This document shows positions 1-9,586 of a stretch of 9,586 bases of DNA, piece by piece. The DNA lies in IMG/VR virus record IMGVR_UViG_3300015179_000037, positions 1 through 9,586 of that record; one strand, 5' to 3'. This DNA is from a virus (taxonomy: Duplodnaviria; Heunggongvirae; Uroviricota; Caudoviricetes). Made by a program: the position numbers and the translations under genes. Positions within the stretch are counted from its first letter, which is position 1, and each line of letters starts with the position of its first letter. The notes under the pieces were generated by a model. The model was not told the DNA's origin, did no database searches, and saw only the letters and a list, made by a program, of their open reading frames with translations.

Positions 1-207
1 ATCAATGGTTCGTTTACTTGCAAAAGCAAGATACTCAAGCCTTTATCTATGTCCAAAAAAAATTGGTAAAATCATTTAAAGAAAAAACACAACAGTTTAC
101 AGGATTATCTGTCTTGATGTTTTATTATCAGGAAGCACAGCGTCAAGTTCCCGCGCACTACGGATAATGACAAAACCCGTCCTTTCGGTACGCTCCAGAC
201 GAAAAAA

Positions 208-612
208 GTGACTGGCAGTCTCAGCGCCGATATGCTGATTGACCTGAAATTTACGCTGCGCAATAAGTACCGCAAAAAAGCTGTATGGGTGATGAACTCA
301 AATACAGCCGCCTCCGCACAAAAACTGAAAAATGCCACTGGTGATTACATCTGGCGCGATCGTTTACAGGCTGGTGATCCTGATTCTCTGCTGGGGCTTC
401 CGGTTGAATATCTGGAATTTATGCCGGACGGTGTGATTGCAGTCGGTGACTTTAAGCGCGGTTATTTCATCGTTGACCATAAAACCGGTACGCGTACCCG
501 TCCGGATTTCAGCGAGCCTGGATTCATTAACATCTATACCCAGAAATATCTGGGCGGTGGTGTGGTGGATTCGAACGCCATCAAGATTCTGGAAATTCAG
601 GCTGGCAAGTAA
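208..612 (+). CDS. HK97-family major capsid protein, C-terminal portion only; the frame is open from 118 but closed upstream, so this is probably a 5'-truncated or interrupted gene.
   Basis: The translation (AVWVMNSNTAA...LLGLPVEYLEFMPDGVIAVGDFKRGYFIVDH...YLGGGVVDSNAIKILEI) has the pattern I associate with HK97-fold capsid C-termini. Frame 1 has stops at 67-69 and 115-117 and no other frame continues into it. The ORF-track start at 208 is a GTG. Confidence 0.55.
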   Translation: MTGSLSADMLIDLKFTLRNKYRKKAVWVMNSNTAASAQKLKNATGDYIWRDRLQAGDPDSLLGLPVEYLEFMPDGVIAVGDFKRGYFIVDHKTGTRTRPDFSEPGFINIYTQKYLGGGVVDSNAIKILEIQAGK

Positions 613-620
613 TGAGCAAA

Positions 621-641
621 GGGGGCTTCGGCCTCCTTTTT
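621..641 (+). terminator. Candidate intrinsic terminator or attenuator immediately after the capsid ORF
   Basis: GGGGGC-TTCG-GCCTCC forms a 6-bp stem (one G-U pair) with a UUCG tetraloop and is followed by TTTTT. It begins 9 nt after the capsid stop. Confidence 0.5.
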
Positions 642-661
642 CAGCTTTATGGAGTACACCG

Positions 662-1222
662 ATGAAAAACACCGATTTTGAAATCCGTACATCTGAACTG
701 ACCGCCAGCGATAAAAAACTGGTGGGTTATGCCGTTCGCTGGAACAGCCTTTCAGAAATTATCTGGGACGAGTTTCGCGAACAGTTCACGCCGGGGGCTT
801 TTGCTGACTATCTGGCGGCGGGTAATGATGTGCGCTGTCTGTATGAGCATGACTATACCCAACTGCTGGGGCGTACCAAATCCGGCTCACTGGTACTGAC
901 TGAGGATAACACCGGGCTACGTTTTGAACTGACACCGCCAAATACCCAGCTTGGAAAAGATGTGCTTACGCTGGTGGAACGTGGCGATATTACAGGAATG
1001 AGCTTTGGCTTTCGCGCATTATGCGAGGAGTGGAATATCGCGCAAAAACCGTATCTGCGTACTGTAACCGCCGCAGAACTCCGTGAAATCACGATAACAT
1101 CGATGCCTGCTTATCCCGAATCCGGCGTGGAGATTGCCCACCGTTCGTTGTTTGCACAGTACCCTGAATTACGCCCGGCAGGAAATAATCGTCATCGCTG
1201 GGCTGAACTGGCGGGGTTGTGA
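662..1222 (+). CDS. Prohead maturation protease, HK97 family (peptidase S78)
   Basis: The translation MKNTDFEIRTSELTASDKKLVGYAVRWNS...LLGRTKSGSLVLTEDNTGLRFELTPPNTQLGKDVLTLVERGDITGMSFGF matches the conserved layout of HK97 prohead proteases. The ATG at 662 has GGAG upstream; the track start at 437 is an in-frame upstream extension. Confidence 0.85.
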   Translation: MKNTDFEIRTSELTASDKKLVGYAVRWNSLSEIIWDEFREQFTPGAFADYLAAGNDVRCLYEHDYTQLLGRTKSGSLVLTEDNTGLRFELTPPNTQLGKDVLTLVERGDITGMSFGFRALCEEWNIAQKPYLRTVTAAELREITITSMPAYPESGVEIAHRSLFAQYPELRPAGNNRHRWAELAGL

Positions 1223-1223
1223 T

Positions 1224-2438
1224 ATGTGGTGGCCTTTTAGTCGTAAAAAAAGCGATCTGCGTAACCTGTCCATTGATGATTTTCTGGCGTTGTCTGGTGT
1301 ACCAAATACCGGATCCGGAGAATATGTTTCTGCCGGGACGGCTGAATCATTGCCTGCTGTGATGAACGCGGTTTCTGTCATCGCTGAGGCGGTGGCCACG
1401 ATGCCGTGTTACCTGTATCTGGTACGCAATGATAAGGGCAGAGAGGCGCGGGAATGGCTGGACAGTCACCCGGTAGATATTCTGCTGAATGAGCAGCCTA
1501 ATTCGTGCCTGACACCTTACCAGTTTAAACGCACAATGATGCGTCACTGCCTGCTGAACGGTAACGCCTATGCGGTTATTGAGTGGGGGCGGGACGGGCA
1601 GCCAAAATCACTTCATCCTTATGCGCCGGGGTGTGTTGTACCGGAACGCACAGGCACACACAAATACCGCTATACCATCACCGAACCCTGTACAGGAACG
1701 GTGCGCACGTATTTACAGGAAGAAGTTCTGCATCTCCGCTATGCCTCGGATGATGGCTTTCTGGGGCGTTCCCCCGTCACGATTTGCCGTGAGGCGCTGG
1801 GGCTTGGCCTTGCTCAACAGCGCCACGGAGCCAGCATTATGAAAGATGGCATGATGGCGGCAGGGATTATCACGTCAGGTGAATGGCTGGACGGCGTGAA
1901 AGGTAAACAGGCATTAGACGCACTGGAACGCTACAAGGGGGCGAAAAATGCCGGAAAAACGCCAATCCTTGAAGGGGGCATGGATTACAGGCGGCTGGGG
2001 ATGAGTAACCAGGATGCGGAATGGCTGGCCTCCCGTCGCTTCTCCATTGAAGACATCGCCAGGATGTTCAACGTGTCGCCGATTTTTCTTCAGGAATACA
2101 GCAACAGCACCTACAGCAATTTCAGTGAGGCGAGCCGCGCATTTCTGACCATGACAATGCGCCCGTGGCTGGCGAACTTCGAACAGCAAATCAAGGCCGC
2201 TTTGCTGGTGACTTCTCCCGTACCTGGTACCCGTTATCTGGTTGAGTTTGATTCAGCCGATTTACTGCGCGCCACACCCACCGAACGTTATGCCACGTAT
2301 GAGAAAGGGATTAAGAGCGGGATCATGAATCCGAACGAAGCTCGCGAACGCGAGGGTATGCCGCCGCGTGAAGGTGGTGATGAGTTCAGCCAGGCATGGA
2401 AACAGACTGTGGAAATTAAAGGGAGAAAAGATGAGTGA
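1224..2438 (+). CDS. Phage portal protein, HK97 family
   Basis: A 404-aa product whose C-terminal half (SIEDIARMFNVSPIFL...RPWLANFEQQI...RYLVEFDSADLLRATPTERYATYEKGIKSGIMNPNEAREREGMPP) is typical of HK97-type portals. The ATG at 1224 lies 1 nt after the protease stop; the track start at 1134 overlaps the protease. Confidence 0.85.
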   Translation: MWWPFSRKKSDLRNLSIDDFLALSGVPNTGSGEYVSAGTAESLPAVMNAVSVIAEAVATMPCYLYLVRNDKGREAREWLDSHPVDILLNEQPNSCLTPYQFKRTMMRHCLLNGNAYAVIEWGRDGQPKSLHPYAPGCVVPERTGTHKYRYTITEPCTGTVRTYLQEEVLHLRYASDDGFLGRSPVTICREALGLGLAQQRHGASIMKDGMMAAGIITSGEWLDGVKGKQALDALERYKGAKNAGKTPILEGGMDYRRLGMSNQDAEWLASRRFSIEDIARMFNVSPIFLQEYSNSTYSNFSEASRAFLTMTMRPWLANFEQQIKAALLVTSPVPGTRYLVEFDSADLLRATPTERYATYEKGIKSGIMNPNEAREREGMPPREGGDEFSQAWKQTVEIKGRKDE

Positions 2439-2733
2439 AGCCAGAATTACACCTGATGAAGTCAGGGCACATCTTCGACTTGATGATGATTTATCCGGTG
2501 AAGGCGAACTTCTGAAAATGTATACCGATGCGGCGCTGGAAGCCTGCCAGAAGCATATCGGGAAACGTTTTGAAGACGGGCTGGAATTTACCCCGGCAAT
2601 GCGTGTTGGTTGCCTGATGTACATCGCTTTCCTGTACGAGAACAGGGAAGCAGTTTCACCAGTGGAGCAGTCTGAACTGCCTATGGCTATTTCTGCGCTC
2701 TGGTCGGTTTATCGTGATGTGGGGGTGTACTGA
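2431..2733 (+). CDS. Head-tail connector / DNA-packaging protein, gp6-like
   Basis: The N-terminus MSEARITPDEVRAHLRLDDDLSGEGELL...AALEACQKHIGKRF fits the gp6-like connector family. GGGAG precedes the ATG at 2431, and the gene overlaps the portal stop by 8 nt. Confidence 0.75.
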   Translation: MSEARITPDEVRAHLRLDDDLSGEGELLKMYTDAALEACQKHIGKRFEDGLEFTPAMRVGCLMYIAFLYENREAVSPVEQSELPMAISALWSVYRDVGVY

Positions 2734-3173
2734 TGCCGTGGCAACCATTAAGGCGATGCACTGAGCCGGGCTGTAATAAGCGCGTGAAGTCCGGCAAGTG
2801 TGAAGAGCACAGACGGGCTGTATGGCGTGCAGAGGATGCCAGACGGGGACACCGCCGCGCGCGCGGGTATTCCCGACAGTGGGACAAATACCGCGCCCTG
2901 TACCTGAGCAAAAACCCGTTATGCGTGCGTTGTCTGGCTAAGGGGATTTATACGCCAGCTCTTGTGGTGGATCACATCATCCCCATCAATGGCGGCGGTG
3001 ATGTTCTCTTCTGGCCTGAGTGGAACCACCAGGCATTGTGCCAGACGTGCCACAACCGTAAGACGACACGGGAAGATCCAGCCACGAAAGCGAACCGTAA
3101 GGCGGGCATGTATCGCGAGCAGGAAGAACGGGCGGCACACCGTAACGACTGGATGTATGGCGATGATGACTGA
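2733..3173 (+). CDS. HNH endonuclease, terminase-associated type
   Basis: Cys pairs (CTEPGC, CVRCL, CQTCH) plus DHIIP and NH motifs are characteristic of HNH nucleases. It sits immediately upstream of the terminase genes, as HNH does in HK97-like packaging modules. Its ATG overlaps the connector stop (TGATG). Confidence 0.85.
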   Translation: MPWQPLRRCTEPGCNKRVKSGKCEEHRRAVWRAEDARRGHRRARGYSRQWDKYRALYLSKNPLCVRCLAKGIYTPALVVDHIIPINGGGDVLFWPEWNHQALCQTCHNRKTTREDPATKANRKAGMYREQEERAAHRNDWMYGDDD

Positions 3174-3461
3174 ACAGGAGCAAACCAGGCTGATACGTGG
3201 GTTGATAAGGCAGCGTGACACATGGAAGACACAGGAGACAGGGCACAAAGCCAACAGGACAGGGCGCACAAAACGCACCACAGCGAAGTGATTAACCGAC
3301 CGTGACCGCGAGGTCATGGAATGTTTTCGCAATCGCTGGTGAGGCCGTCAGAGGGGGTGGGGGTGGTTTTCAGGACGAAACCGCCCCTGCCGGACACCGA
3401 CCGCCTCCTCAAATTTTTGTGCACGGGAATTTTTTTGAAAATAATTGGGCGAAAAAAGAAC
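3174..3461 (+). promoter_or_regulatory. Candidate cos / terminase-recognition region between HNH and TerS
   Basis: This is the only sizeable non-coding gap in the module. It contains an imperfect direct repeat (ACAGGAGACAGGGCACAAA at 3231-3249 and ACAGGACAGGGCGCACAAA at 3254-3272), a G-tract GGGGGTGGGGGTGG at 3353-3366, and T/A runs just before the TerS start. Confidence 0.35.
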
Positions 3462-3818
3462 ATGGCAAGACCACCAAAAGCCCCCGCTTACCTGGATGAA
3501 ATCGCGGTCAGGCAGTGGAAGGAAAAATCGCGCCAGCTTTCCGGACGGGAAGACCTTACTCCCGCCGACTGGAGCAATCTGGAGCTGTATTGCGTTAACT
3601 ACTCCATATACCGCAAAGCCGTCGAAGACCTTGCCACGCGCGGGTTCAGCATTGTTAACAGTCAGGGCAGCGAGAGCAGAAACCCCGCCCTGAGCGCAAA
3701 GGCTGACGCTGAAAGAATAATGATCAAAATGGCTTCTTTGCTGGGTTTTGACCCGGTAAGTCGCCGCAGAAATCCACCGGAAACAGAGGAAGAGGACGAG
3801 CTTGACCGCCTGGCATGA
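3462..3818 (+). CDS. Terminase small subunit, P27 family
   Basis: The translation MARPPKAPAYLDEIAVRQWKE...LTPADWSNLELYCVNYSIYRKAVEDL fits the P27-type TerS. I chose the internal ATG at 3462 rather than the track start at 3321, because the extension runs through the G-tract and T-run region. Confidence 0.75.
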   Translation: MARPPKAPAYLDEIAVRQWKEKSRQLSGREDLTPADWSNLELYCVNYSIYRKAVEDLATRGFSIVNSQGSESRNPALSAKADAERIMIKMASLLGFDPVSRRRNPPETEEEDELDRLA

Positions 3819-5463
3819 GTACGCAGAAGGCGTAAAAAACGGCAAAATTACGGCCTGTAAACGACTGAAACAGGCCGTTAAACGGTATTTTTCTGACCTT
3901 GAAAACCCCCTTTACACGTTCGATCCGGAGGTCGTGGAGCGGTTTATTGCCTTTTCCAGGGTGTGTCCGCACGTAAAAGGCGCAATGCGCGGTAGCCCCA
4001 TTGAGCTGGAGCCGTGGCAGCAGTTCGCCTTTGCGTGCATCCTGGGCTTTAAGGTTAAGGCCACCGGACGGCGCAAATACACCAGCGCATTCATTGAAGT
4101 GCCGCGAAAAAATGCCAAATCCACGGTCGCCGCTATCCTGGCTAACTGGTTTCTGGTTATGGAAAACGGGCAGCAGGATATTTACACCGCCGCTGTGAGT
4201 CGTGATCAGGCGCGGATCGTGTTTGATGATGCGCGTCAGATGTGCCTTTTATCCCGACCGTTACGAAAGCGGGTAAATATTCAGGCACACAAGGTGATAC
4301 ACCCGAAAACCAACAGCCTGTTAAAGCCACTGGCAGCAAAAGCGGCAACCATTGAAGGTACAAACCCGAGTCTTGCCATTGTGGATGAATATCACCTGCA
4401 CCCTGACAACGGGGTTTATTCCGCGCTTGAACTGGGAATGGGGGCGCGTCCGGAGGGGCTGTTATTTGCCATCACCACATCGGGGAGCAACGTTGTTTCA
4501 GCCTGTAAACAACACTATGACTATTGCTGCCAGATACTGGATGGTGAAGAGGTGAACGAATCCATGTTCGTGCTGATTTACGAGCTGGATGATGAAAGCG
4601 AGGTTGACGATCCGGCGATGTGGATAAAGGCGAATCCCAATATCGATGTTTCCGTCGATCGTGAAAAACTGGCCTCAACCATCCAGAAAGCGCGGGGTAT
4701 TCCGTCGCAGTGGGTGGAAATGCTCACCAAGCGATTCAATATCTGGTGTCAGGGGGCTACGCCGTGGATGGGTAACGGTGCATGGGCGGAGTGCGCCGGA
4801 ACGTTCGCAGAGGCGGATTTATACGGTCAGGAGTGCTACGCGGGGCTGGACTTATCATCAACCAGCGATATTTCCAGCGTGTGCTATGCCTTTCCGGTCG
4901 GTAAAAAGATTATGCTGGTTTCCCGTCACTATCTGCCGGAATTTCAGCTACAGAACCCCGCCAATAAAAACCGCGCCATCTATCGCCAGTGGGTAAAGGC
5001 GGGCTGGATACGCACAACACCGGGTGACTGCATTGATTATGACCGTATCCGTGATGACATCATGGCGGATGCAGAGAATTTCAATATCAGGCTGGTGGGC
5101 TTCGATACATGGAACGCCACGCACCTGAGGACGCAGCTACAGGGGGCAGGATTTGAGGTGGAGCCGTTCCCGCAAACATACCTTCGTTTCAGTCCGGCGG
5201 CGAAATCGTTCGAAGTTTTTGTTAACCGGAAGGTGATTGTGCATCGTGGCGATCCGGTGCTGGCCTGGTCAATGAGTAATGTTGTGATGCAGAGTGACGC
5301 GAACGCCAATATCAAGCCGAACAAGAAAAAATCATCCAACAAGATAGACCCGAGCGTTGCGGCGCTGATGGCGTTTGGCACATTCCAGGCAGAGCATGAG
5401 GAATTTGCATTTGATATGAGCGACAGCCACAAAGAGCGGCTTGCGGCGTTTGATGGGGTATGA
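3802..5463 (+). CDS. Terminase large subunit (ATPase/nuclease)
   Basis: A 553-aa product with a Walker-A-like VPRKNAKST, a Walker-B-like LAIVDE and a C-terminal nuclease-like region. The start appears to be TTG at 3802, overlapping the TerS stop. Confidence 0.9.
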   Translation: MTAWHEYAEGVKNGKITACKRLKQAVKRYFSDLENPLYTFDPEVVERFIAFSRVCPHVKGAMRGSPIELEPWQQFAFACILGFKVKATGRRKYTSAFIEVPRKNAKSTVAAILANWFLVMENGQQDIYTAAVSRDQARIVFDDARQMCLLSRPLRKRVNIQAHKVIHPKTNSLLKPLAAKAATIEGTNPSLAIVDEYHLHPDNGVYSALELGMGARPEGLLFAITTSGSNVVSACKQHYDYCCQILDGEEVNESMFVLIYELDDESEVDDPAMWIKANPNIDVSVDREKLASTIQKARGIPSQWVEMLTKRFNIWCQGATPWMGNGAWAECAGTFAEADLYGQECYAGLDLSSTSDISSVCYAFPVGKKIMLVSRHYLPEFQLQNPANKNRAIYRQWVKAGWIRTTPGDCIDYDRIRDDIMADAENFNIRLVGFDTWNATHLRTQLQGAGFEVEPFPQTYLRFSPAAKSFEVFVNRKVIVHRGDPVLAWSMSNVVMQSDANANIKPNKKKSSNKIDPSVAALMAFGTFQAEHEEFAFDMSDSHKERLAAFDGV

Positions 5464-5753
5464 CGAGAATGAGCGAAACCGAACTACTAAAAATAATCCG
5501 CCGCGTTACCGGAATCAGCCAGGAAGCAGGCAAACAGGAGGCCACGCAGCCGGACAGCGTGATAGCCAAAAATTACGCGCGTGTGGTGGCTGAGGTGATG
5601 CGCCGTGACGGTATCGAGCTTAACGGCGTGGATATACGCAATATACGCACCAGAGTTCTGGAGTTGTTGTCATATCGTCGCCGCGTGGAGATGTACCAGG
5701 AGAAAGAAAAAATTACTTACCACTGGAAGAAGCCGGAGCGGTTGCGGCGGTAA
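5460..5753 (+). CDS. Hypothetical 97-aa basic protein, translationally coupled to TerL; function unknown
   Basis: Its ATG overlaps the TerL stop (GTATGA). I recognise no family from the sequence (MTRMSETELLKIIRRVTGISQEAGKQ...RRRVEMYQEKEKITYHWKKPERLRR). It is the last ORF before the non-coding island end. Confidence 0.5.
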   Translation: MTRMSETELLKIIRRVTGISQEAGKQEATQPDSVIAKNYARVVAEVMRRDGIELNGVDIRNIRTRVLELLSYRRRVEMYQEKEKITYHWKKPERLRR

Positions 5754-6046
5754 CTGGTTGATATTCCCGACGTTCCAAAAATGGGTTGGCTACACCCCTC
5801 ACAACTACGACATTTTCGCAGTTTAATTAATGGTCAGTTTAATCGCTAACCCGCTGATATTTTCGGAAACCTCAATTTGAGGAGACCGGAACGTCTACAT
5901 GGCTGCATCACCATAACGATGATTTAGCCCACCAGCAACCATAACGATTTCCGTTACAGTTGATGTGCTTTTTTGCTGGTAAGGCCTAACCCGTTGATTC
6001 TTCCACAATCCCCCATTGGGGGAGGCTGGGCGGCCTGCTGTGGGCT

Positions 6047-6065
6047 TTTCCACCATTGGTGGAAA
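6047..6065. repeat. Perfect 19-bp palindrome TTTCCACCATTGGTGGAAA, sharing a CCATTGG core with the 13-bp palindrome CCCCCATTGGGGG at 6010-6022
   Basis: Read directly from the sequence; the two palindromes are about 25 bp apart edge to edge. Confidence 0.9.
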
Positions 6066-6284
6066 GGTGCAGATCTGGATCATCATTACGGTGATCAAGG
6101 GTATGTAAAACCCACCAGCCTGATTGACATTTAACCGGAAAAAAGCCAGGTAGCCCCGTTATGGGGATCCCCATATCGACATTAACGCCCCTCATGAATT
6201 GGCGTGCTTCTCCCTGGAAAGATGACCCGCCTGTATATTTCTTGTGTCTATTTGTTCCACGTTGTTTCATACAGTGCACCGAAC

Positions 6285-6308
6285 GGTGTAGTTAATGGTG
6301 TAGTTAAT
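6285..6308. repeat. Perfect tandem duplication, 2 x 12 bp (GGTGTAGTTAAT)
   Basis: Read directly from the sequence; it lies close to the inferred island/chromosome junction. Confidence 0.9.
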
Positions 6309-6352
6309 TTGCGATTTTTGGCACTTCTTGCAGTGTATATTGTTTAATTAAA

Positions 6353-6391
6353 TCAATGCGTTATTGAAAATAAGTTATAGATATATCCCAT
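6353..6391 (-). pseudogene. allE: Probable orphaned 5' end of allE (ylbA): start codon and RBS retained after allC, gene body replaced by the insertion
   Basis: On the minus strand the allC stop is followed by AGGAG and, 10 nt later, ATG GGA TAT, which then runs into a stop after 12 codons (MGYIYNLFSITH*). From memory, E. coli AllE begins MGY and starts a few bp after allC. Confidence 0.4.
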
Positions 6392-6401
6392 TTATGACTC
6401 C

Positions 6402-7637
6402 TTATTTCTGCCAGGCAAGTTGATAAAGCATGAGTGCCAACGTTTTGACCCCTTCGGCAAGGTCGGTAATATTGGTGCGTTCCGCCGGGTTATGGCTGAT
6501 CCCATTGATGCTGGGAATGAAAATCATGCAGGTTGGTACGCGAGGCGCGAAAATTTGCGCGTCGTGCCCGGCACCACTGTGCATCACCCGGTAATTCAGT
6601 TTTTCGCTTTCACACAATTCTGTCAGGGTGGCGACCAGGTCCTTATTCATCGGCACGGGTTCTTCGTCCATCCATAAATCGATATCAATACCAATGTCCA
6701 TTTCATCGCAAATCGCCCGCATGTCGTTTTCTAACTGCTGAGTGAAATCGCGCAGCACGGCGGCGTCGGTATGACGACAATCAATGGTGAATGTGGTTTT
6801 ACCCGGCACCACATTCACCGTATTCGGGCGCGGCTCCACCTTACCAAAGGTCAGCACCAGCGGGTCGCCCATCTTTTTCGCTTTTTCGATCGACTGATGG
6901 CAAATGCGACTGAAAGCGTAAACTGTATCACGACGGTAACCCATCGGCGTGGTGCCTGCATGGTTTGATTCGCCGTTCAGCGTCACCGTATAGCGACGTT
7001 GCCCGACAATTGCATTCACCACGCCAATTGATTGCCCATTACTTTCCAGCACACAGCCCTGTTCGATATGCAGTTCGACAAAGGCTTTAATATCCTGACG
7101 CGGAGTTAGCGGGGCGTCCGGCAGAGTAAATCCGCAAGCCTTCATCGCATCGACAAAACTATTTCCTTTGGCATCACAGATATTCCGCACGTCGTCAGGA
7201 TTCGCCAGCCCAAAGATATTTTTACTGCCCCAGAAAACATACGGGAAGCGGCTGCCTTCTTCTTCCGCCATCGCCACCACTTCAACCGTACGTAACGGCG
7301 CGCCGTATTGCCTTTTCAACCAGTCAATTGCCAGCCACGCCGCCAGCGCGCCGAATTGCCCGTCGAGGTTACCGCCGTTAACCACGGTATCGATATGCGA
7401 ACCGCTCAGAACCACTTCCTGTGGATATTCGGTGCCACTCAGGCGACCGTATAAATTCCCCACTTCATCGAAACGTGTTTCCAGCCCGCTTGCTGCCATT
7501 CTTTTTTTAAATTGCTGCTGGGTTTCCAGCCATTCCGGCGAATAAAGTAAACGGGTCATCCCACCCGTTGGGTCAGCGCCAAAAGAGGAAAGCCAGGGCA
7601 GCGTTTCTTCTATGGCTTGACGGAAATGTGTAATCAT
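6402..7637 (-). CDS. allC: Allantoate amidohydrolase
   Basis: The translation MITHFRQAIEETLPWLSSFGADP...LMLYQLAWQK matches E. coli AllC as I recall it across its length. The start is the ATG at 7637 with an AGGA RBS; the track start at 7655 is an upstream extension. Confidence 0.93.
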   Translation of the reverse strand: MITHFRQAIEETLPWLSSFGADPTGGMTRLLYSPEWLETQQQFKKRMAASGLETRFDEVGNLYGRLSGTEYPQEVVLSGSHIDTVVNGGNLDGQFGALAAWLAIDWLKRQYGAPLRTVEVVAMAEEEGSRFPYVFWGSKNIFGLANPDDVRNICDAKGNSFVDAMKACGFTLPDAPLTPRQDIKAFVELHIEQGCVLESNGQSIGVVNAIVGQRRYTVTLNGESNHAGTTPMGYRRDTVYAFSRICHQSIEKAKKMGDPLVLTFGKVEPRPNTVNVVPGKTTFTIDCRHTDAAVLRDFTQQLENDMRAICDEMDIGIDIDLWMDEEPVPMNKDLVATLTELCESEKLNYRVMHSGAGHDAQIFAPRVPTCMIFIPSINGISHNPAERTNITDLAEGVKTLALMLYQLAWQK

Positions 7638-7658: not shown

Positions 7659-8708
7659 TTATTGCGCAAAGGGATTTTTCGTTTCGTATGACGTGTTATA
7701 AAGCGCGTCGGAAATTAAATACTGGTAAATATCATCAACAATTTCGATGCCTTCGACGGCGGCTTTGCGTTGTTTCATATCCTGATCCTGTCCGGGATAA
7801 TAAACCTGGTTAAAACCGGGCGCGGGGGTTATGGCATTTAATTCGCGCATGGTCTGGCTAAGATGTTGACGGAATAGTTCGCTGGAGGAGAAAAAGTTCG
7901 GATTAATAACGATATGTAATTGCCCCAAATTACGCCCGGCGTGTAAATCGTCATACATCGAACTAACCTGTCGCCCGAACGGTAAGCCGAGTAAGACGCC
8001 TGAGAGGACGTCAATCATCATCATCAGGCCATACCCTTTCGGTCCGGCGGCAGGGAGCAGGGCGTTAACTGCAAATGGATCGGTTGTTGGTGCTCCGTTT
8101 TTATCGACCGCCCAGGTATCCGGGATAGACATATTACGCGAGCGGGCGTCGAGCACTTTTCCCCATGCCTGTACGGTAGTCGCCATATCAAAGGTAAGGA
8201 TCTCGTCGCCTTCTCCCGGCGCGGCAAAGGCCAGTGGGTTAGTACCGTAGTAAATTTCCGCGCCGCCAAACGGCACCACCATTGGATCGGACTGGCACAT
8301 CGAAATGCCAATTAATCCGGCGCGGGCTGCCTGCTGCACAAAATAAGAGATTGCGCCGCTGTGACCCATCCGGCTGATACCGACCACCGCAACGCCATTT
8401 TGCTGGGCGGTTTTGATGGCATGTTCCATACCCATTTTCGCCGCGACCTGTCCGGCGGCATTGTCGGCATGTAAAATTGCCGAGCACGGCCCGGTTTCCT
8501 CAAGACGAAACTCCGGTTCGCGGTTGGTGCCGCCTTTTGAAATGCGTTCTGCGTAGTATTCAACACGCACCGCGCCATGAGAGTGGATCCCTCTGGCATC
8601 GGCGTAAACCAATACTTCAGCCACGGTTGCAGCGTGCTCACGTTTTAACCCAGCCTGGCAGAGTTTATTCTCAATTAGCTGGTGGAGTGTTTCCCGACTG
8701 ATTTTCAT
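7659..8708 (-). CDS. allD: Ureidoglycolate dehydrogenase
   Basis: The 349-aa translation MKISRETLHQLIENKLCQAGLKREHAATVAEVLVYADARGIHSHGAVRVEYY... matches E. coli AllD. An AAGGAAG RBS precedes it, and it lies 21 bp upstream of allC in the same orientation. Confidence 0.93.
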   Translation of the reverse strand: MKISRETLHQLIENKLCQAGLKREHAATVAEVLVYADARGIHSHGAVRVEYYAERISKGGTNREPEFRLEETGPCSAILHADNAAGQVAAKMGMEHAIKTAQQNGVAVVGISRMGHSGAISYFVQQAARAGLIGISMCQSDPMVVPFGGAEIYYGTNPLAFAAPGEGDEILTFDMATTVQAWGKVLDARSRNMSIPDTWAVDKNGAPTTDPFAVNALLPAAGPKGYGLMMMIDVLSGVLLGLPFGRQVSSMYDDLHAGRNLGQLHIVINPNFFSSSELFRQHLSQTMRELNAITPAPGFNQVYYPGQDQDMKQRKAAVEGIEIVDDIYQYLISDALYNTSYETKNPFAQ

Positions 8709-9024: not shown

Positions 9025-9586
9025 ATGATCCACGCCTTTATTAAAAAAGGGTGTTTTCAGGATTCGGTCAGTTTAATGATTATTTCACGAAAACTCAGCG
9101 AATCAGAAAATGTTGATGATGTTTCCGTAATGATGGGTACGCCCGCCAATAAAGCGTTATTAGATACCACAGGTTTCTGGCATGACGATTTTAATAACGC
9201 CACGCCGAACGATATTTGCGTGGCAATTCGTAGCGAAGCGGCGGATGCGGGGATCGCGCAGGCGATTATGCAGCAGCTTGAAGAGGCGCTAAAACAACTG
9301 GCGCAGGGGTCAGGCAGCAGCCAGGCGTTGACGCAGGTGCGTCGCTGGGACAGTGCCTGTCAGAAATTACCCGATGCCAATCTGGCGCTGATTTCAGTGG
9401 CTGGCGAGTATGCGGCGGAGCTGGCAAACCAGGCGCTGGATCGCAACCTCAACGTGATGATGTTCTCCGATAACGTCACGCTGGAAGATGAAATCCAACT
9501 TAAAACCCGCGCGCGGGAAAAAGGCTTGCTGGTGATGGGGCCGGACTGCGGTACGTCGATGATTGCCGGCAGATCGGAAGAGCGTC
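9025..9586 (+). CDS. fdrA: FdrA, 5' partial; runs off the window, and the final 16 nt are probably adapter rather than gene
   Basis: AAGGAG RBS then ATG at 9025; the translation MIHAFIKKGCFQDSVSLMIISRKLSESENVDDVSVMMGTPANKALLDTTGFWHDDF... matches E. coli FdrA as I recall it. Confidence 0.85.
   Translation, partial: MIHAFIKKGCFQDSVSLMIISRKLSESENVDDVSVMMGTPANKALLDTTGFWHDDFNNATPNDICVAIRSEAADAGIAQAIMQQLEEALKQLAQGSGSSQALTQVRRWDSACQKLPDANLALISVAGEYAAELANQALDRNLNVMMFSDNVTLEDEIQLKTRAREKGLLVMGPDCGTSMIAGRSEER
9571..9586. other. Probable Illumina adapter remnant (AGATCGGAAGAGCGTC) at the 3' end of the contig/window
   Basis: An exact 16-nt match to the start of the standard Illumina TruSeq adapter AGATCGGAAGAGCGTCGTGTAGGG..., located exactly at the window end. 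Confidence 0.8.

What the first reader, a model, noticed from the sequence alone, without database searches (positions are those of the whole stretch)
6340..6404. Insertion appears to sit inside the 5' end of allE, splitting the allD-allC-allE operon
Directly after the allC stop, the minus strand keeps an AGGAG RBS and ATG GGA TAT (MGY, as I recall for the AllE N-terminus). Within a few codons the sequence becomes unrelated and stops after 12 codons. The island has therefore replaced or displaced the allE body at this position. This is an unusual target: inside an operon, at the 5' end of a protein-coding gene rather than at a tRNA or 3' gene end. It may affect allantoin utilisation unless allE is reconstituted at the other junction.
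Basis: partly seen in the sequence, partly recalled or inferred. Interest (0 to 1): 0.55.

Follow-up and report, generated by a model that had tools for sequence, protein, structure and literature searches.

The report
Phage satellite inserted in allE start
A roughly 15-kb phage satellite (a capsid-forming PICI) has inserted by site-specific recombination into the first three codons of the E. coli allantoin gene allE, cutting the gene off from its start codon and operon; this is an ordinary kind of event at a rarely used attachment site missing from the 2018 list of E. coli PICI sites.

Summary
On the minus strand the allC stop (6404-6402) overlaps an AGGAG. ATG GGA TAT (6391-6383) follows, then unrelated sequence with a stop after 12 codons (MGYIYNLFSITH*).

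An island-free E. coli reads ...AAGGAGTCATAAATGGGATAT|TTAAATAAC... (AllE MGYLNNV). Homology to the window breaks exactly after GGGATAT.

DNA to the left (148-6382) is the right end of a capsid-forming PICI: capsid, protease, portal, connector, HNH, TerS, TerL and a non-coding arm.

In the closest complete genomes (99.1% identical, e.g. AST20) the island is 14.66 kb. The allE body lies at its far end beside a tyrosine integrase gene. That junction reads TGA TAA AAG GGA TAT TTA... The start codon has become AAG behind two in-frame stops, so allE is not reconstituted.

The two junctions share only GGGATAT and rebuild the empty site exactly. Thirteen of 5426 complete E. coli genomes carry this junction, with at least three different satellites. 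It is therefore a genuine, recurrent attB.

Sister islands with 84-97% identical integrases sit at phoQ-roxA and abgR-smrA. Their attP sites are colinear and differ mainly in the 7-bp overlap.

The window itself is a raw chimeric contig (Listeria-like 1-147, Illumina adapter 9571-9586). The junction is independently reproduced elsewhere.

The parts
6383..6389 (-). GGGATAT, the 7-bp identity shared by both junctions and the inferred overlap (crossover) region. It equals the third base of the allE start codon plus codons 2-3.
   Evidence: this is the only block identical between the int-side and allC-side junctions. attB rebuilt from the two junctions equals the empty site.
6383..6391 (-). The retained allE codons 1-3 (ATG GGA TAT).
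6353..6391 (-). 12-codon remnant ORF MGYIYNLFSITH*: 3 allE codons fused to 9 island codons plus a stop. It is a by-product of the insertion, not a gene.
6398..6402 (-). The allE Shine-Dalgarno AGGAG, overlapping the allC stop codon. It stays on the allC side.
6390..6398 (-). Host half-site B (GTCATAAAT), left of the overlap. It matches the island's C site TTGATAAAA at 6 of 9 positions.
   Evidence: inferred core-type integrase site.
6374..6382 (-). Island half-site C' (ATCTATAAC), right of the overlap.
   Evidence: colinear with TTTTATCAC in the phoQ-roxA type attP.
6285..6307 (-). Two tandem arm-type repeats TTAACTACACC (P' arm), 75 and 87 nt from the overlap. The same pair lies beside int in the other arm.
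   Evidence: Integrase binding was not tested.
5754..6382 (.). Non-coding right arm of the island (P' arm plus about 400 nt carrying further repeats). No Rfam family or Pfam domain was found.
   Evidence: The region is unannotated in AST20.
148..5753 (+). cf-PICI packaging module: capsid C-terminal part (to 612), prohead protease (662-1222), portal (1224-2438), connector (2431-2733), HNH (2733-3173), TerS (3462-3818), TerL (3802-5463), and a 97-aa protein of unknown function (5460-5753).
   Evidence: Pfam hits; annotation of the 99.1% identical AST20 island.
6402..7637 (-). allC (allantoate deiminase), intact.
7659..8708 (-). allD (ureidoglycolate dehydrogenase), intact. It is the first gene of the allDCE operon.
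9025..9570 (+). 5' part of fdrA, cut off by the contig end.
1..147 (.). Foreign 32%-GC segment, 100% identical to internal parts of 'Listeria phage LM' contigs. This is a chimeric contig end that truncates the capsid gene.
9571..9586 (.). AGATCGGAAGAGCGTC, the start of an Illumina adapter.
   Evidence: E. coli homology ends at 9568-9571. Adapter identity is from my own knowledge.

Best explanation
Window 6340-6404 is the integrase-distal junction (attR, by the prophage convention that puts int on the left) of a capsid-forming phage-inducible chromosomal island (cf-PICI).

The island's heterobivalent tyrosine integrase recombined an attP of the form TTGATAAAA-GGGATAT-ATCTATAAC with the chromosomal site GTCATAAAT-GGGATAT-TTAAATAAC. 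Strand exchange occurred within the 7-bp overlap GGGATAT, which is nucleotides 3-9 of allE.

The result has two halves. The allE ribosome-binding site and its first three codons stay behind allC, fused to nine island codons. The remaining 258 codons of allE lie about 14.66 kb away, beside the divergently oriented int gene. They start with AAG instead of ATG, behind in-frame TGA TAA, with no RBS and no connection to the allD promoter.

allE is therefore most likely silenced while the island is resident. Precise excision would restore it exactly.

Shown: both junctions, the reconstruction of attB, recurrence of the junction, the integrase domains and the arm repeats. Inferred: the exact cleavage positions, integrase binding to the proposed sites, loss of AllE expression, and any growth phenotype.
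For: Junction and empty-site alignments. attB rebuilt from the two junctions equals the empty site over 40 nt on each side, and the only shared block is GGGATAT.

The far junction translates as **KGYLNNV.... There is no in-frame ATG in the first 80 codons. The only canonical alternative start (ATG/GTG/TTG) is GTG at codon 21. It has no Shine-Dalgarno sequence and is GTT in other strains.

The integrase carries Arm-DNA-bind_3, Phage_int_M and Phage_integrase domains. Tandem TTAACTACACC repeats occur in both arms.

Identical junctions are found for different elements: the window-type cf-PICI (AST20), a second cf-PICI type (2012C-4502), a classical PICI (AR_0085) and a 10-kb derivative (E300010). 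A metagenome contig carries attR next to island DNA that differs from the window's.

13 of 5426 genomes carry the int-side junction.

Sister islands at phoQ-roxA and abgR-smrA have attP sites that match the allE type around the overlap, with the phoQ-roxA arm repeats at the same offsets, and different 7-bp overlaps. Their identity blocks contain or overlap the att cores published for those sites (PMC6092414 Table S1).

Gene content matches the published cf-PICI definition (10.1101/2025.02.11.637232).
Against: The far junction is not in the window, which breaks chimerically inside the capsid gene. The state of allE in this exact genome is therefore extrapolated from genomes that are 99% identical.

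No excised attP form was found in viral or metagenome contigs, so mobility of this particular element is unproven.

PGAP still annotates a 247-aa allE starting at CTG codon 15. Homologues with shorter N-termini exist (1SFN aligns from residue 21). A truncated active AllE therefore cannot be excluded if it is transcribed and translated.

The promoter scan is a crude consensus search.
Confidence: 0.88

Rival explanations
1. allE remains functional in island carriers. A truncated AllE (from CTG codon 15 or GTG codon 21) would be made from a transcript that starts inside the island's left arm or reads out of the island, so the insertion would be phenotypically neutral.
For: PGAP annotates an intact 247-aa allE in all carriers seen. 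The 260 codons after the junction are uninterrupted. Structural homologues lack the first 10-20 residues.
Against: There is no ATG, no Shine-Dalgarno sequence, and two in-frame stops upstream. GTG21 is GTT in other strains. No sigma-70-like promoter faces allE between int and the junction. int is transcribed away from allE.
Confidence: 0.1
2. The junction is an assembly artefact of a chimeric raw contig.
For: The contig is demonstrably chimeric at its left end and ends in adapter sequence.
Against: The 150 nt around the junction are identical in complete genomes. 10 complete genomes cover at least 80% of a 1.1-kb query spanning the junction, and 13 have the matching partner junction. The junction obeys att-site logic.
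Confidence: 0.01
3. This is a rare secondary-site (illegitimate) integration by the phoQ-roxA-specific PICI integrase, not a dedicated attachment site.
For: The AR_0085 integrase at the allE site is 97% identical to phoQ-roxA-type integrases. No integrase residue is uniquely tied to allE, because A74 and A314 also occur in the smrA type. The host half-sites resemble each other.
Against: All allE-resident islands carry a dedicated attP core (GGGATAT plus ATCTATAAC) that differs from the phoQ type (TATGTCC plus TTTTATCAC). Secondary-site insertion by a phoQ-type attP would leave hybrid cores. At least four different elements show exactly the same junction.
Confidence: 0.05
4. allE was deleted or replaced, or the strain has a different native gene order.
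For: Within the window itself no allE body is visible.
Against: In every related complete genome the allE body sits at the other island end, in native synteny with glxK.
Confidence: 0.03

Closest known systems
EcCIEDL933 and other capsid-forming PICIs (Alqurainy et al., bioRxiv 10.1101/2022.09.08.507074)
   Same: About 15 kb in size. Gene order is int, an AlpA-like regulator, primase, then its own capsid, protease, portal, connector, HNH, TerS and TerL. There are no tail or lysis genes.
   Different: Direct sequence comparison with EcCIEDL933 was not done. The attachment site here is the allE start codon. The paper says E. coli cf-PICIs use six attB sites, but its Table S2 could not be read, so I cannot say whether allE is one of them.
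EcCICFT073-type classical PICIs at ycfD(roxA)-phoQ, core GGACATATTT (Fillol-Salom et al. 2018, PMC6092414 Table S1)
   Same: The integrase is of the same family (84-97% identity). The arm repeats are the same, and the attP is colinear with C = TTGATAAAA. The core I derived for that site, AAATATGTCC, is the reverse complement of the published one.
   Different: The 7-bp overlap and the C' half-site differ. The phoQ-roxA site lies at the phoQ stop codon and the intergenic region and disrupts nothing. The allE site removes a start codon. allE is not among the eight E. coli PICI sites listed in 2018.
Prophages that interrupt host genes, such as Stx phages in wrbA or yehV, Listeria phi10403S in comK, and Bacillus skin in sigK (own knowledge)
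   Same: Site-specific insertion inside an ORF inactivates the gene, and precise excision restores it.
   Different: There is no evidence here that excision is regulated for the host's benefit. PICI excision is reported to depend on helper-phage activation of alpA.
Lambda and HK022 Int systems (own knowledge)
   Same: A heterobivalent integrase, arm-type sites, and a 7-bp overlap whose identity between attP and attB is required. Closely related integrases use different cores.
   Different: The biochemistry has not been tested here. The integrase belongs to the P4-like Arm-DNA-bind_3 class.

Membership tests
Capsid-forming PICI (cf-PICI) | Size of roughly 10-18 kb | tested here: met
   The distance between the two overlap copies is 14.66 kb in AST20, which is 99.1% identical to the window. 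The window itself holds only the right 6.2 kb.
Capsid-forming PICI (cf-PICI) | Integrase, a regulatory module (AlpA-like) and a replication module | tested here: met
   int, an HTH/AlpA family regulator, DNA primase and SSB are annotated in AST20 and E300010. They lie outside the window.
Capsid-forming PICI (cf-PICI) | Own packaging module: capsid, protease, portal, connector/adaptor, HNH, TerS, TerL | tested here: met
   Pfam hits PF05065, PF04586, PF04860, PF05135, PF01844, PF05119 and PF03354/PF20441 in window ORFs. Only one connector-type protein was recognised. The capsid gene is cut by the chimeric contig end.
Capsid-forming PICI (cf-PICI) | No tail module and no lysis genes | tested here: met
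   None are annotated between attL and attR in AST20.
Capsid-forming PICI (cf-PICI) | Induced by a helper phage, packaged into its own small capsids, and uses helper tails | not testable with these tools
   Requires experiments. Indirect hint only: a 16.5-kb 'induced prophage' record (LR881103.1) shares the module at 77% identity.
Site-specific integration by a heterobivalent tyrosine integrase | Integrase with arm-binding, core-binding and catalytic domains | tested here: met
   PF13356 (E 8.6e-18) and PF00589 (E 2.9e-16) pass their cutoffs. PF22022 scores 22.8 bits, below its cutoff of 27.
Site-specific integration by a heterobivalent tyrosine integrase | attL and attR share a short identical core, and attB rebuilt from them equals an empty site | tested here: met
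   The core is GGGATAT. The rebuilt attB is identical to strain 22AR0434 over 40 nt on each side.
Site-specific integration by a heterobivalent tyrosine integrase | Repeated arm-type sites in both arms of attP | tested here: met
   Two tandem TTAACTACACC repeats lie at +75/+87 from the overlap and again beside int. Protein binding was not tested.
Site-specific integration by a heterobivalent tyrosine integrase | Inverted core-type half-sites flanking a 7-bp overlap | tested here: inconclusive
   C versus the reverse complement of C' matches 8/9 in the phoQ type, 7/9 in the smrA type, but only 5/9 in the allE type.
Site-specific integration by a heterobivalent tyrosine integrase | Excised circular or packaged form carrying attP | tested here: inconclusive
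   Exact attP strings were absent from viral and metagenome contig collections. Absence there does not show immobility.
Gene-restoring integration (the island supplies a replacement gene end) | An intact target ORF with a start codon and RBS at the gene-body junction | tested here: not met
   ATG has become AAG, in-frame TGA TAA lie upstream, and there is no Shine-Dalgarno sequence.
Catalogued E. coli PICI attachment sites (Fillol-Salom 2018) | The site is one of the eight listed (ycfD-phoQ, tqsA, yejM-luxR, cspD-clpS, lysR-smrA, IS110, yicC-dinD, frmR-thiM) | tested here: not met
   allE/ylbA is absent from Table S1 and from the supplements. No paper in the library links allE or ylbA to an integrase.
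Active-lysogeny type regulatory switch | Excision regulated to restore the host gene without killing the cell | not testable with these tools
   Sequence shows only that precise excision would restore allE.

The most novel reading that the evidence does not exclude
The allE start codon is an uncatalogued attachment site that arose by rewriting only the 7-bp overlap (and the adjacent C' half-site) of a phoQ-roxA-type PICI attP, with essentially no dedicated change in the integrase. This would be a natural case of overlap-programmed retargeting. Because the insertion decapitates allE and precise excision restores it, nitrogen recovery from allantoin would become conditional on the satellite's state. 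In addition, allantoin-induced allDC transcription would read antisense into the satellite's terminase end.
Probability: 0.12. Interest if true: 0.5.

Novelty: new member of a known kind. Interest (0 to 1): 0.3.

Why it matters
The finding adds one well-defined attachment site, with its exact core, to the repertoire of E. coli phage satellites.

It shows that carriage of a satellite can knock out a metabolic gene. AllE converts S-ureidoglycine in the anaerobic allantoin nitrogen pathway. Ureidoglycine is labile and decays spontaneously to glyoxylate, ammonia and urea (PMC4016543), so the phenotype may be leaky.

The trio of sister att sites (allE, phoQ-roxA, abgR-smrA), served by 84-97% identical integrases and attP sites of matching layout, is a convenient natural system for studying how integrase target choice is reprogrammed.

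On a practical level, the 247-aa 'allE' models in RefSeq carrier genomes are annotation artefacts of a decapitated gene. The window's source contig is chimeric and should not be read as a phage genome.

Tried and rejected
- Exact-match searches for the predicted attP in IMG/VR and in metagenome contigs found nothing. A search for the attL junction in IMG/VR also found nothing.
- A scan of one genome per species for close integrase relatives returned only one Shigella flexneri locus, of the phoQ-roxA type. It therefore gave no cross-species picture of allE targeting.
- An Rfam search of 5400-6700 at E<=1 gave no hit.
- Pfam found nothing for the 97-aa ORFs at 5460-5753 (+) and 5986-6279 (-). 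The latter is unannotated in relatives and I treat it as spurious.
- Consensus promoter and terminator scans showed no promoter facing allE at the far junction. They also showed no terminator on the allC strand just inside the island. This is weak evidence only.
- Literature searches for allE or ylbA together with integrase, island or prophage found nothing relevant.
- I considered that specific integrase residues encode allE specificity. Only columns 58, 74 and 314 separate four allE-type from three phoQ-type sequences, and A74 and A314 also occur in the smrA type. The data do not support a dedicated protein determinant. The AR_0085 integrase could equally be a recombinant formed after integration.

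Full report
**What is in the sequence**

Reading the minus strand, allC ends with TAA at 6404-6402. An AGGAG at 6402-6398 overlaps that stop. Six bases later come ATG GGA TAT (6391-6383). The frame then continues ATC TAT AAC TTA TTT TCA ATA ACG CAT TGA, giving MGYIYNLFSITH*.

allC (6402-7637) and allD (7659-8708) are intact on the same strand. The 5' part of fdrA runs off the right end.

**Comparison with island-free genomes**

A 1.1-kb query across the junction matched 5350 of 5426 complete E. coli genomes. In all but 10 of them the match stopped at window 6374-6383, and the annotated features under the match were allC and allE.

Two empty sites (22AR0434, L003; DTU-1, L010) read ...CAGAAATAAGGAGTCATAAATGGGATATTTAAATAACGTCACC..., encoding AllE MGYLNNVTGY. 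This protein has the same length as PDB 1RC6 (YlbA) and matches it end to end. The window is identical up to and including GGGATAT and unrelated afterwards.

**What the inserted DNA is**

Window 148-5753 (+) encodes the C-terminal part of an HK97-type capsid protein, an S78 prohead protease, a portal, a gp6-like connector, an HNH endonuclease, a P27-type TerS and a TerL. About 630 nt of non-coding DNA follow, up to the junction.

The closest complete genomes (AST20, AST240, E203449, AST19 and others; 98.4-99.1% identity over 94-98% of the window) show the whole element. Its gene order is integrase, a small HTH/AlpA-type regulator, Icd-like protein, DUF4222, primase, SSB, ProQ/FinO, capsid, protease, portal, connector, HNH, TerS, TerL. 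There are no tail or lysis genes. The two core copies are 14.66 kb apart.

This matches the published working definition of capsid-forming PICIs (10.1101/2025.02.11.637232; 10.1101/2022.09.08.507074). Helper dependence cannot be tested here.

**The far junction**

In AST20 the allE body lies at the other end of the island, in native synteny with glxK and divergent from int. The junction reads ...AAAAAACACTATTTGATAAAAGGGATATTTAAATAACGTCACC....

In the allE frame this is TGA TAA AAG GGA TAT TTA AAT AAC, or **KGYLNNV..., followed by an uninterrupted allE to its normal stop. The gene has therefore lost its ATG (now AAG), its Shine-Dalgarno sequence and its link to the allD promoter.

The first 80 codons contain no in-frame ATG. 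The only canonical alternative start (ATG/GTG/TTG) is GTG at codon 21. It lacks a Shine-Dalgarno sequence and is GTT in other strains. RefSeq's 247-aa 'allE' in carriers starts at CTG codon 15, which I read as a homology-driven annotation and not as evidence of expression.

A crude consensus scan found no promoter facing allE between int and the junction. I conclude that allE is displaced and not reconstituted. Loss of expression is inferred, not shown.

**Evidence that this is site-specific recombination at a genuine attB**

- The two junctions share only GGGATAT. Joining the host sides of the two junctions reproduces the empty site exactly over 40 nt on each side.
- The integrase has an arm-DNA-binding domain (PF13356), a tyrosine-recombinase catalytic domain (PF00589) and a sub-threshold match to the integrase central domain (PF22022).
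- Both island arms carry a tandem pair of TTAACTACACC repeats. One pair is 75 and 87 nt from the core on the window's side. The other is next to int.
- Exactly the same two junctions flank different elements: the window-type cf-PICI, a second cf-PICI type with a PerC regulator (2012C-4502; also TUM1886, at 88-89% identity), a classical PICI with RepA helicase, PerC, capsid and decoration genes (AR_0085), and a 10-kb derivative (E300010).
- A metagenome contig carries the same attR next to island DNA that differs from the window's.
- Thirteen of 5426 complete genomes (0.24%) have the int-allE junction.

**How the site is chosen**

The same cf-PICI backbone also sits at two other sites. One is between roxA (ycfD) and the phoQ stop codon (L004, L005). 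The other is between abgR and smrA (L006). Their integrases are 91% and 85% identical to the AST20 one.

Around the core, the rebuilt attP sites share the same layout:

- TTGATAAAA | GGGATAT | ATCTATAAC (allE)
- TTGATAAAA | TATGTCC | TTTTATCAC (phoQ-roxA)
- TTTATAAAA | TCACGAT | ATTTATAAT (abgR-smrA)

In the allE and phoQ-roxA types the arm repeats sit at the same distance from the overlap (+75 and +87). The identity blocks I derived for the latter two sites contain or overlap the att cores published for ycfD-phoQ (GGACATATTT, an exact reverse complement) and lysR-smrA (PMC6092414 Table S1).

The layout is the classical one for lambda-type integrases: inverted core-type half-sites around a 7-bp overlap. 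Identity of the overlap between attP and attB is required (established knowledge).

The allE-resident AR_0085 integrase is 97% identical to phoQ-roxA-type integrases. No residue is uniquely tied to allE. The simplest reading is that target choice is set mainly by the attP overlap and C' sequence, with a tolerant integrase. A recombinant int gene formed after integration is an alternative I cannot exclude.

**Consequences**

allD and allC keep their promoter. Their transcript now runs into the island's right arm, antisense to the packaging genes. No terminator-like site was found on that strand within 800 nt.

AllE deaminates S-ureidoglycine. That intermediate is labile and decays spontaneously to glyoxylate, ammonia and urea (PMC4016543). 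An allE-null carrier may therefore be only partly impaired on allantoin. This needs a growth test.

Precise excision would regenerate allE exactly.

**What is known already**

PICIs, cf-PICIs and their integrase-defined att sites are well described. The 2018 catalogue of eight E. coli PICI sites does not contain allE. Full-text searches found no paper linking allE or ylbA to an integrase.

The cf-PICI paper mentions six attB sites, but its table was not readable. I therefore rate this a new member of a known kind, of modest interest.

**Quality of the window**

Bases 1-147 (32% GC) match no E. coli genome or plasmid. They are 100% identical to internal parts of two 'UNVERIFIED_ORG: Listeria phage LM' SPAdes contigs from wastewater. 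The join falls 681 nt into the capsid gene.

Bases 9571-9586 are AGATCGGAAGAGCGTC, the start of an Illumina adapter (own knowledge).

The window is thus a raw chimeric contig, probably bacterial DNA carried into a phage-enrichment library. This does not affect the junction at 6383. It does mean that the left part of this island, and the fate of allE in this very genome, are unseen.

Noticed in passing
window 1-147: A 32%-GC segment with no match in 5426 E. coli genomes or in PLSDB plasmids. It is 100% identical to internal parts of two unannotated 'UNVERIFIED_ORG: Listeria phage LM 4-11-1 / 4-14-1' contigs (wastewater, Turkey). The join at 147/148 truncates the cf-PICI capsid gene 681 nt from its start. 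This is a chimeric contig end.
   Followed up: yes
window 9571-9586: The contig ends in AGATCGGAAGAGCGTC, the start of an Illumina adapter. E. coli homology (fdrA) stops at 9568-9571. The window therefore appears to be a whole untrimmed short-read contig.
   Followed up: partly
window 6284-6309 (also L002 5705-5731): The 26-nt string CGGTGTAGTTAATGGTGTAGTTAATT is listed as the 'att site core' of EcCIDI14 (IS110 site) in Table S1 of PMC6092414. Here it is the tandem arm repeat, present in both arms and about 75 nt inside the true crossover. That published core is probably an arm site and not the crossover.
   Followed up: partly
integrase genes at L002 5753-6982, L008 18374-19603, L004 2765-3994 and L006 2777-4006: The integrases are mosaic. 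The AR_0085 integrase sits at the allE site but is 97% identical to phoQ-roxA-type integrases and only 90.5% identical to the AST20 allE-type. Differences between AST20 and the phoQ type cluster in residues about 120-200 (the core-binding domain), yet AR_0085 is phoQ-like in that stretch.
   Followed up: partly
window 5754-6280: About 500 nt of non-coding DNA lie between the last ORF and the P' arm. They contain a 44-nt direct repeat (5846-5889 and 5986-6029, 70% identity), two copies of ACCATAACGAT (5910, 5938) and a 22-nt imperfect palindrome (6034-6078). There is no Rfam hit. The function is unknown; a cos or regulatory region is possible.
   Followed up: no
L001 (E300010) 18165-19954 and 20604-21839: The allE-resident island in E300010 is a 10-kb derivative in which a 1500-nt 'capsid' ORF is followed directly by the gene that follows terL in AST20. 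This looks like an internal deletion fusing capsid to terL. The same genome has a full copy elsewhere (H58). Its allC carries an internal stop.
   Followed up: no
RefSeq allE models in carriers (e.g. L002 4795-5538): PGAP annotates the decapitated allE as a normal 247-aa protein starting at CTG codon 15, not as a pseudogene or disrupted gene.
   Followed up: yes
phage collection hit LR881103.1: A 16.5-kb record named 'Escherichia phage vB_KppS-Ant' (an induced prophage) shares the capsid-portal-connector-HNH block at about 77% identity. Its size and content suggest it is a cf-PICI deposited as a phage.
   Followed up: no
L011 (metagenome contig SKEX01000449.1) 1-2600: This contig has the same attR junction and allC-allD. 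The island homology to the window is limited to the last ~165 nt of the right arm (window 6218 onward, 97.5%) and a 278-nt stretch at 85% (window 5493-5770). This points to a further element variant at the allE site.
   Followed up: partly
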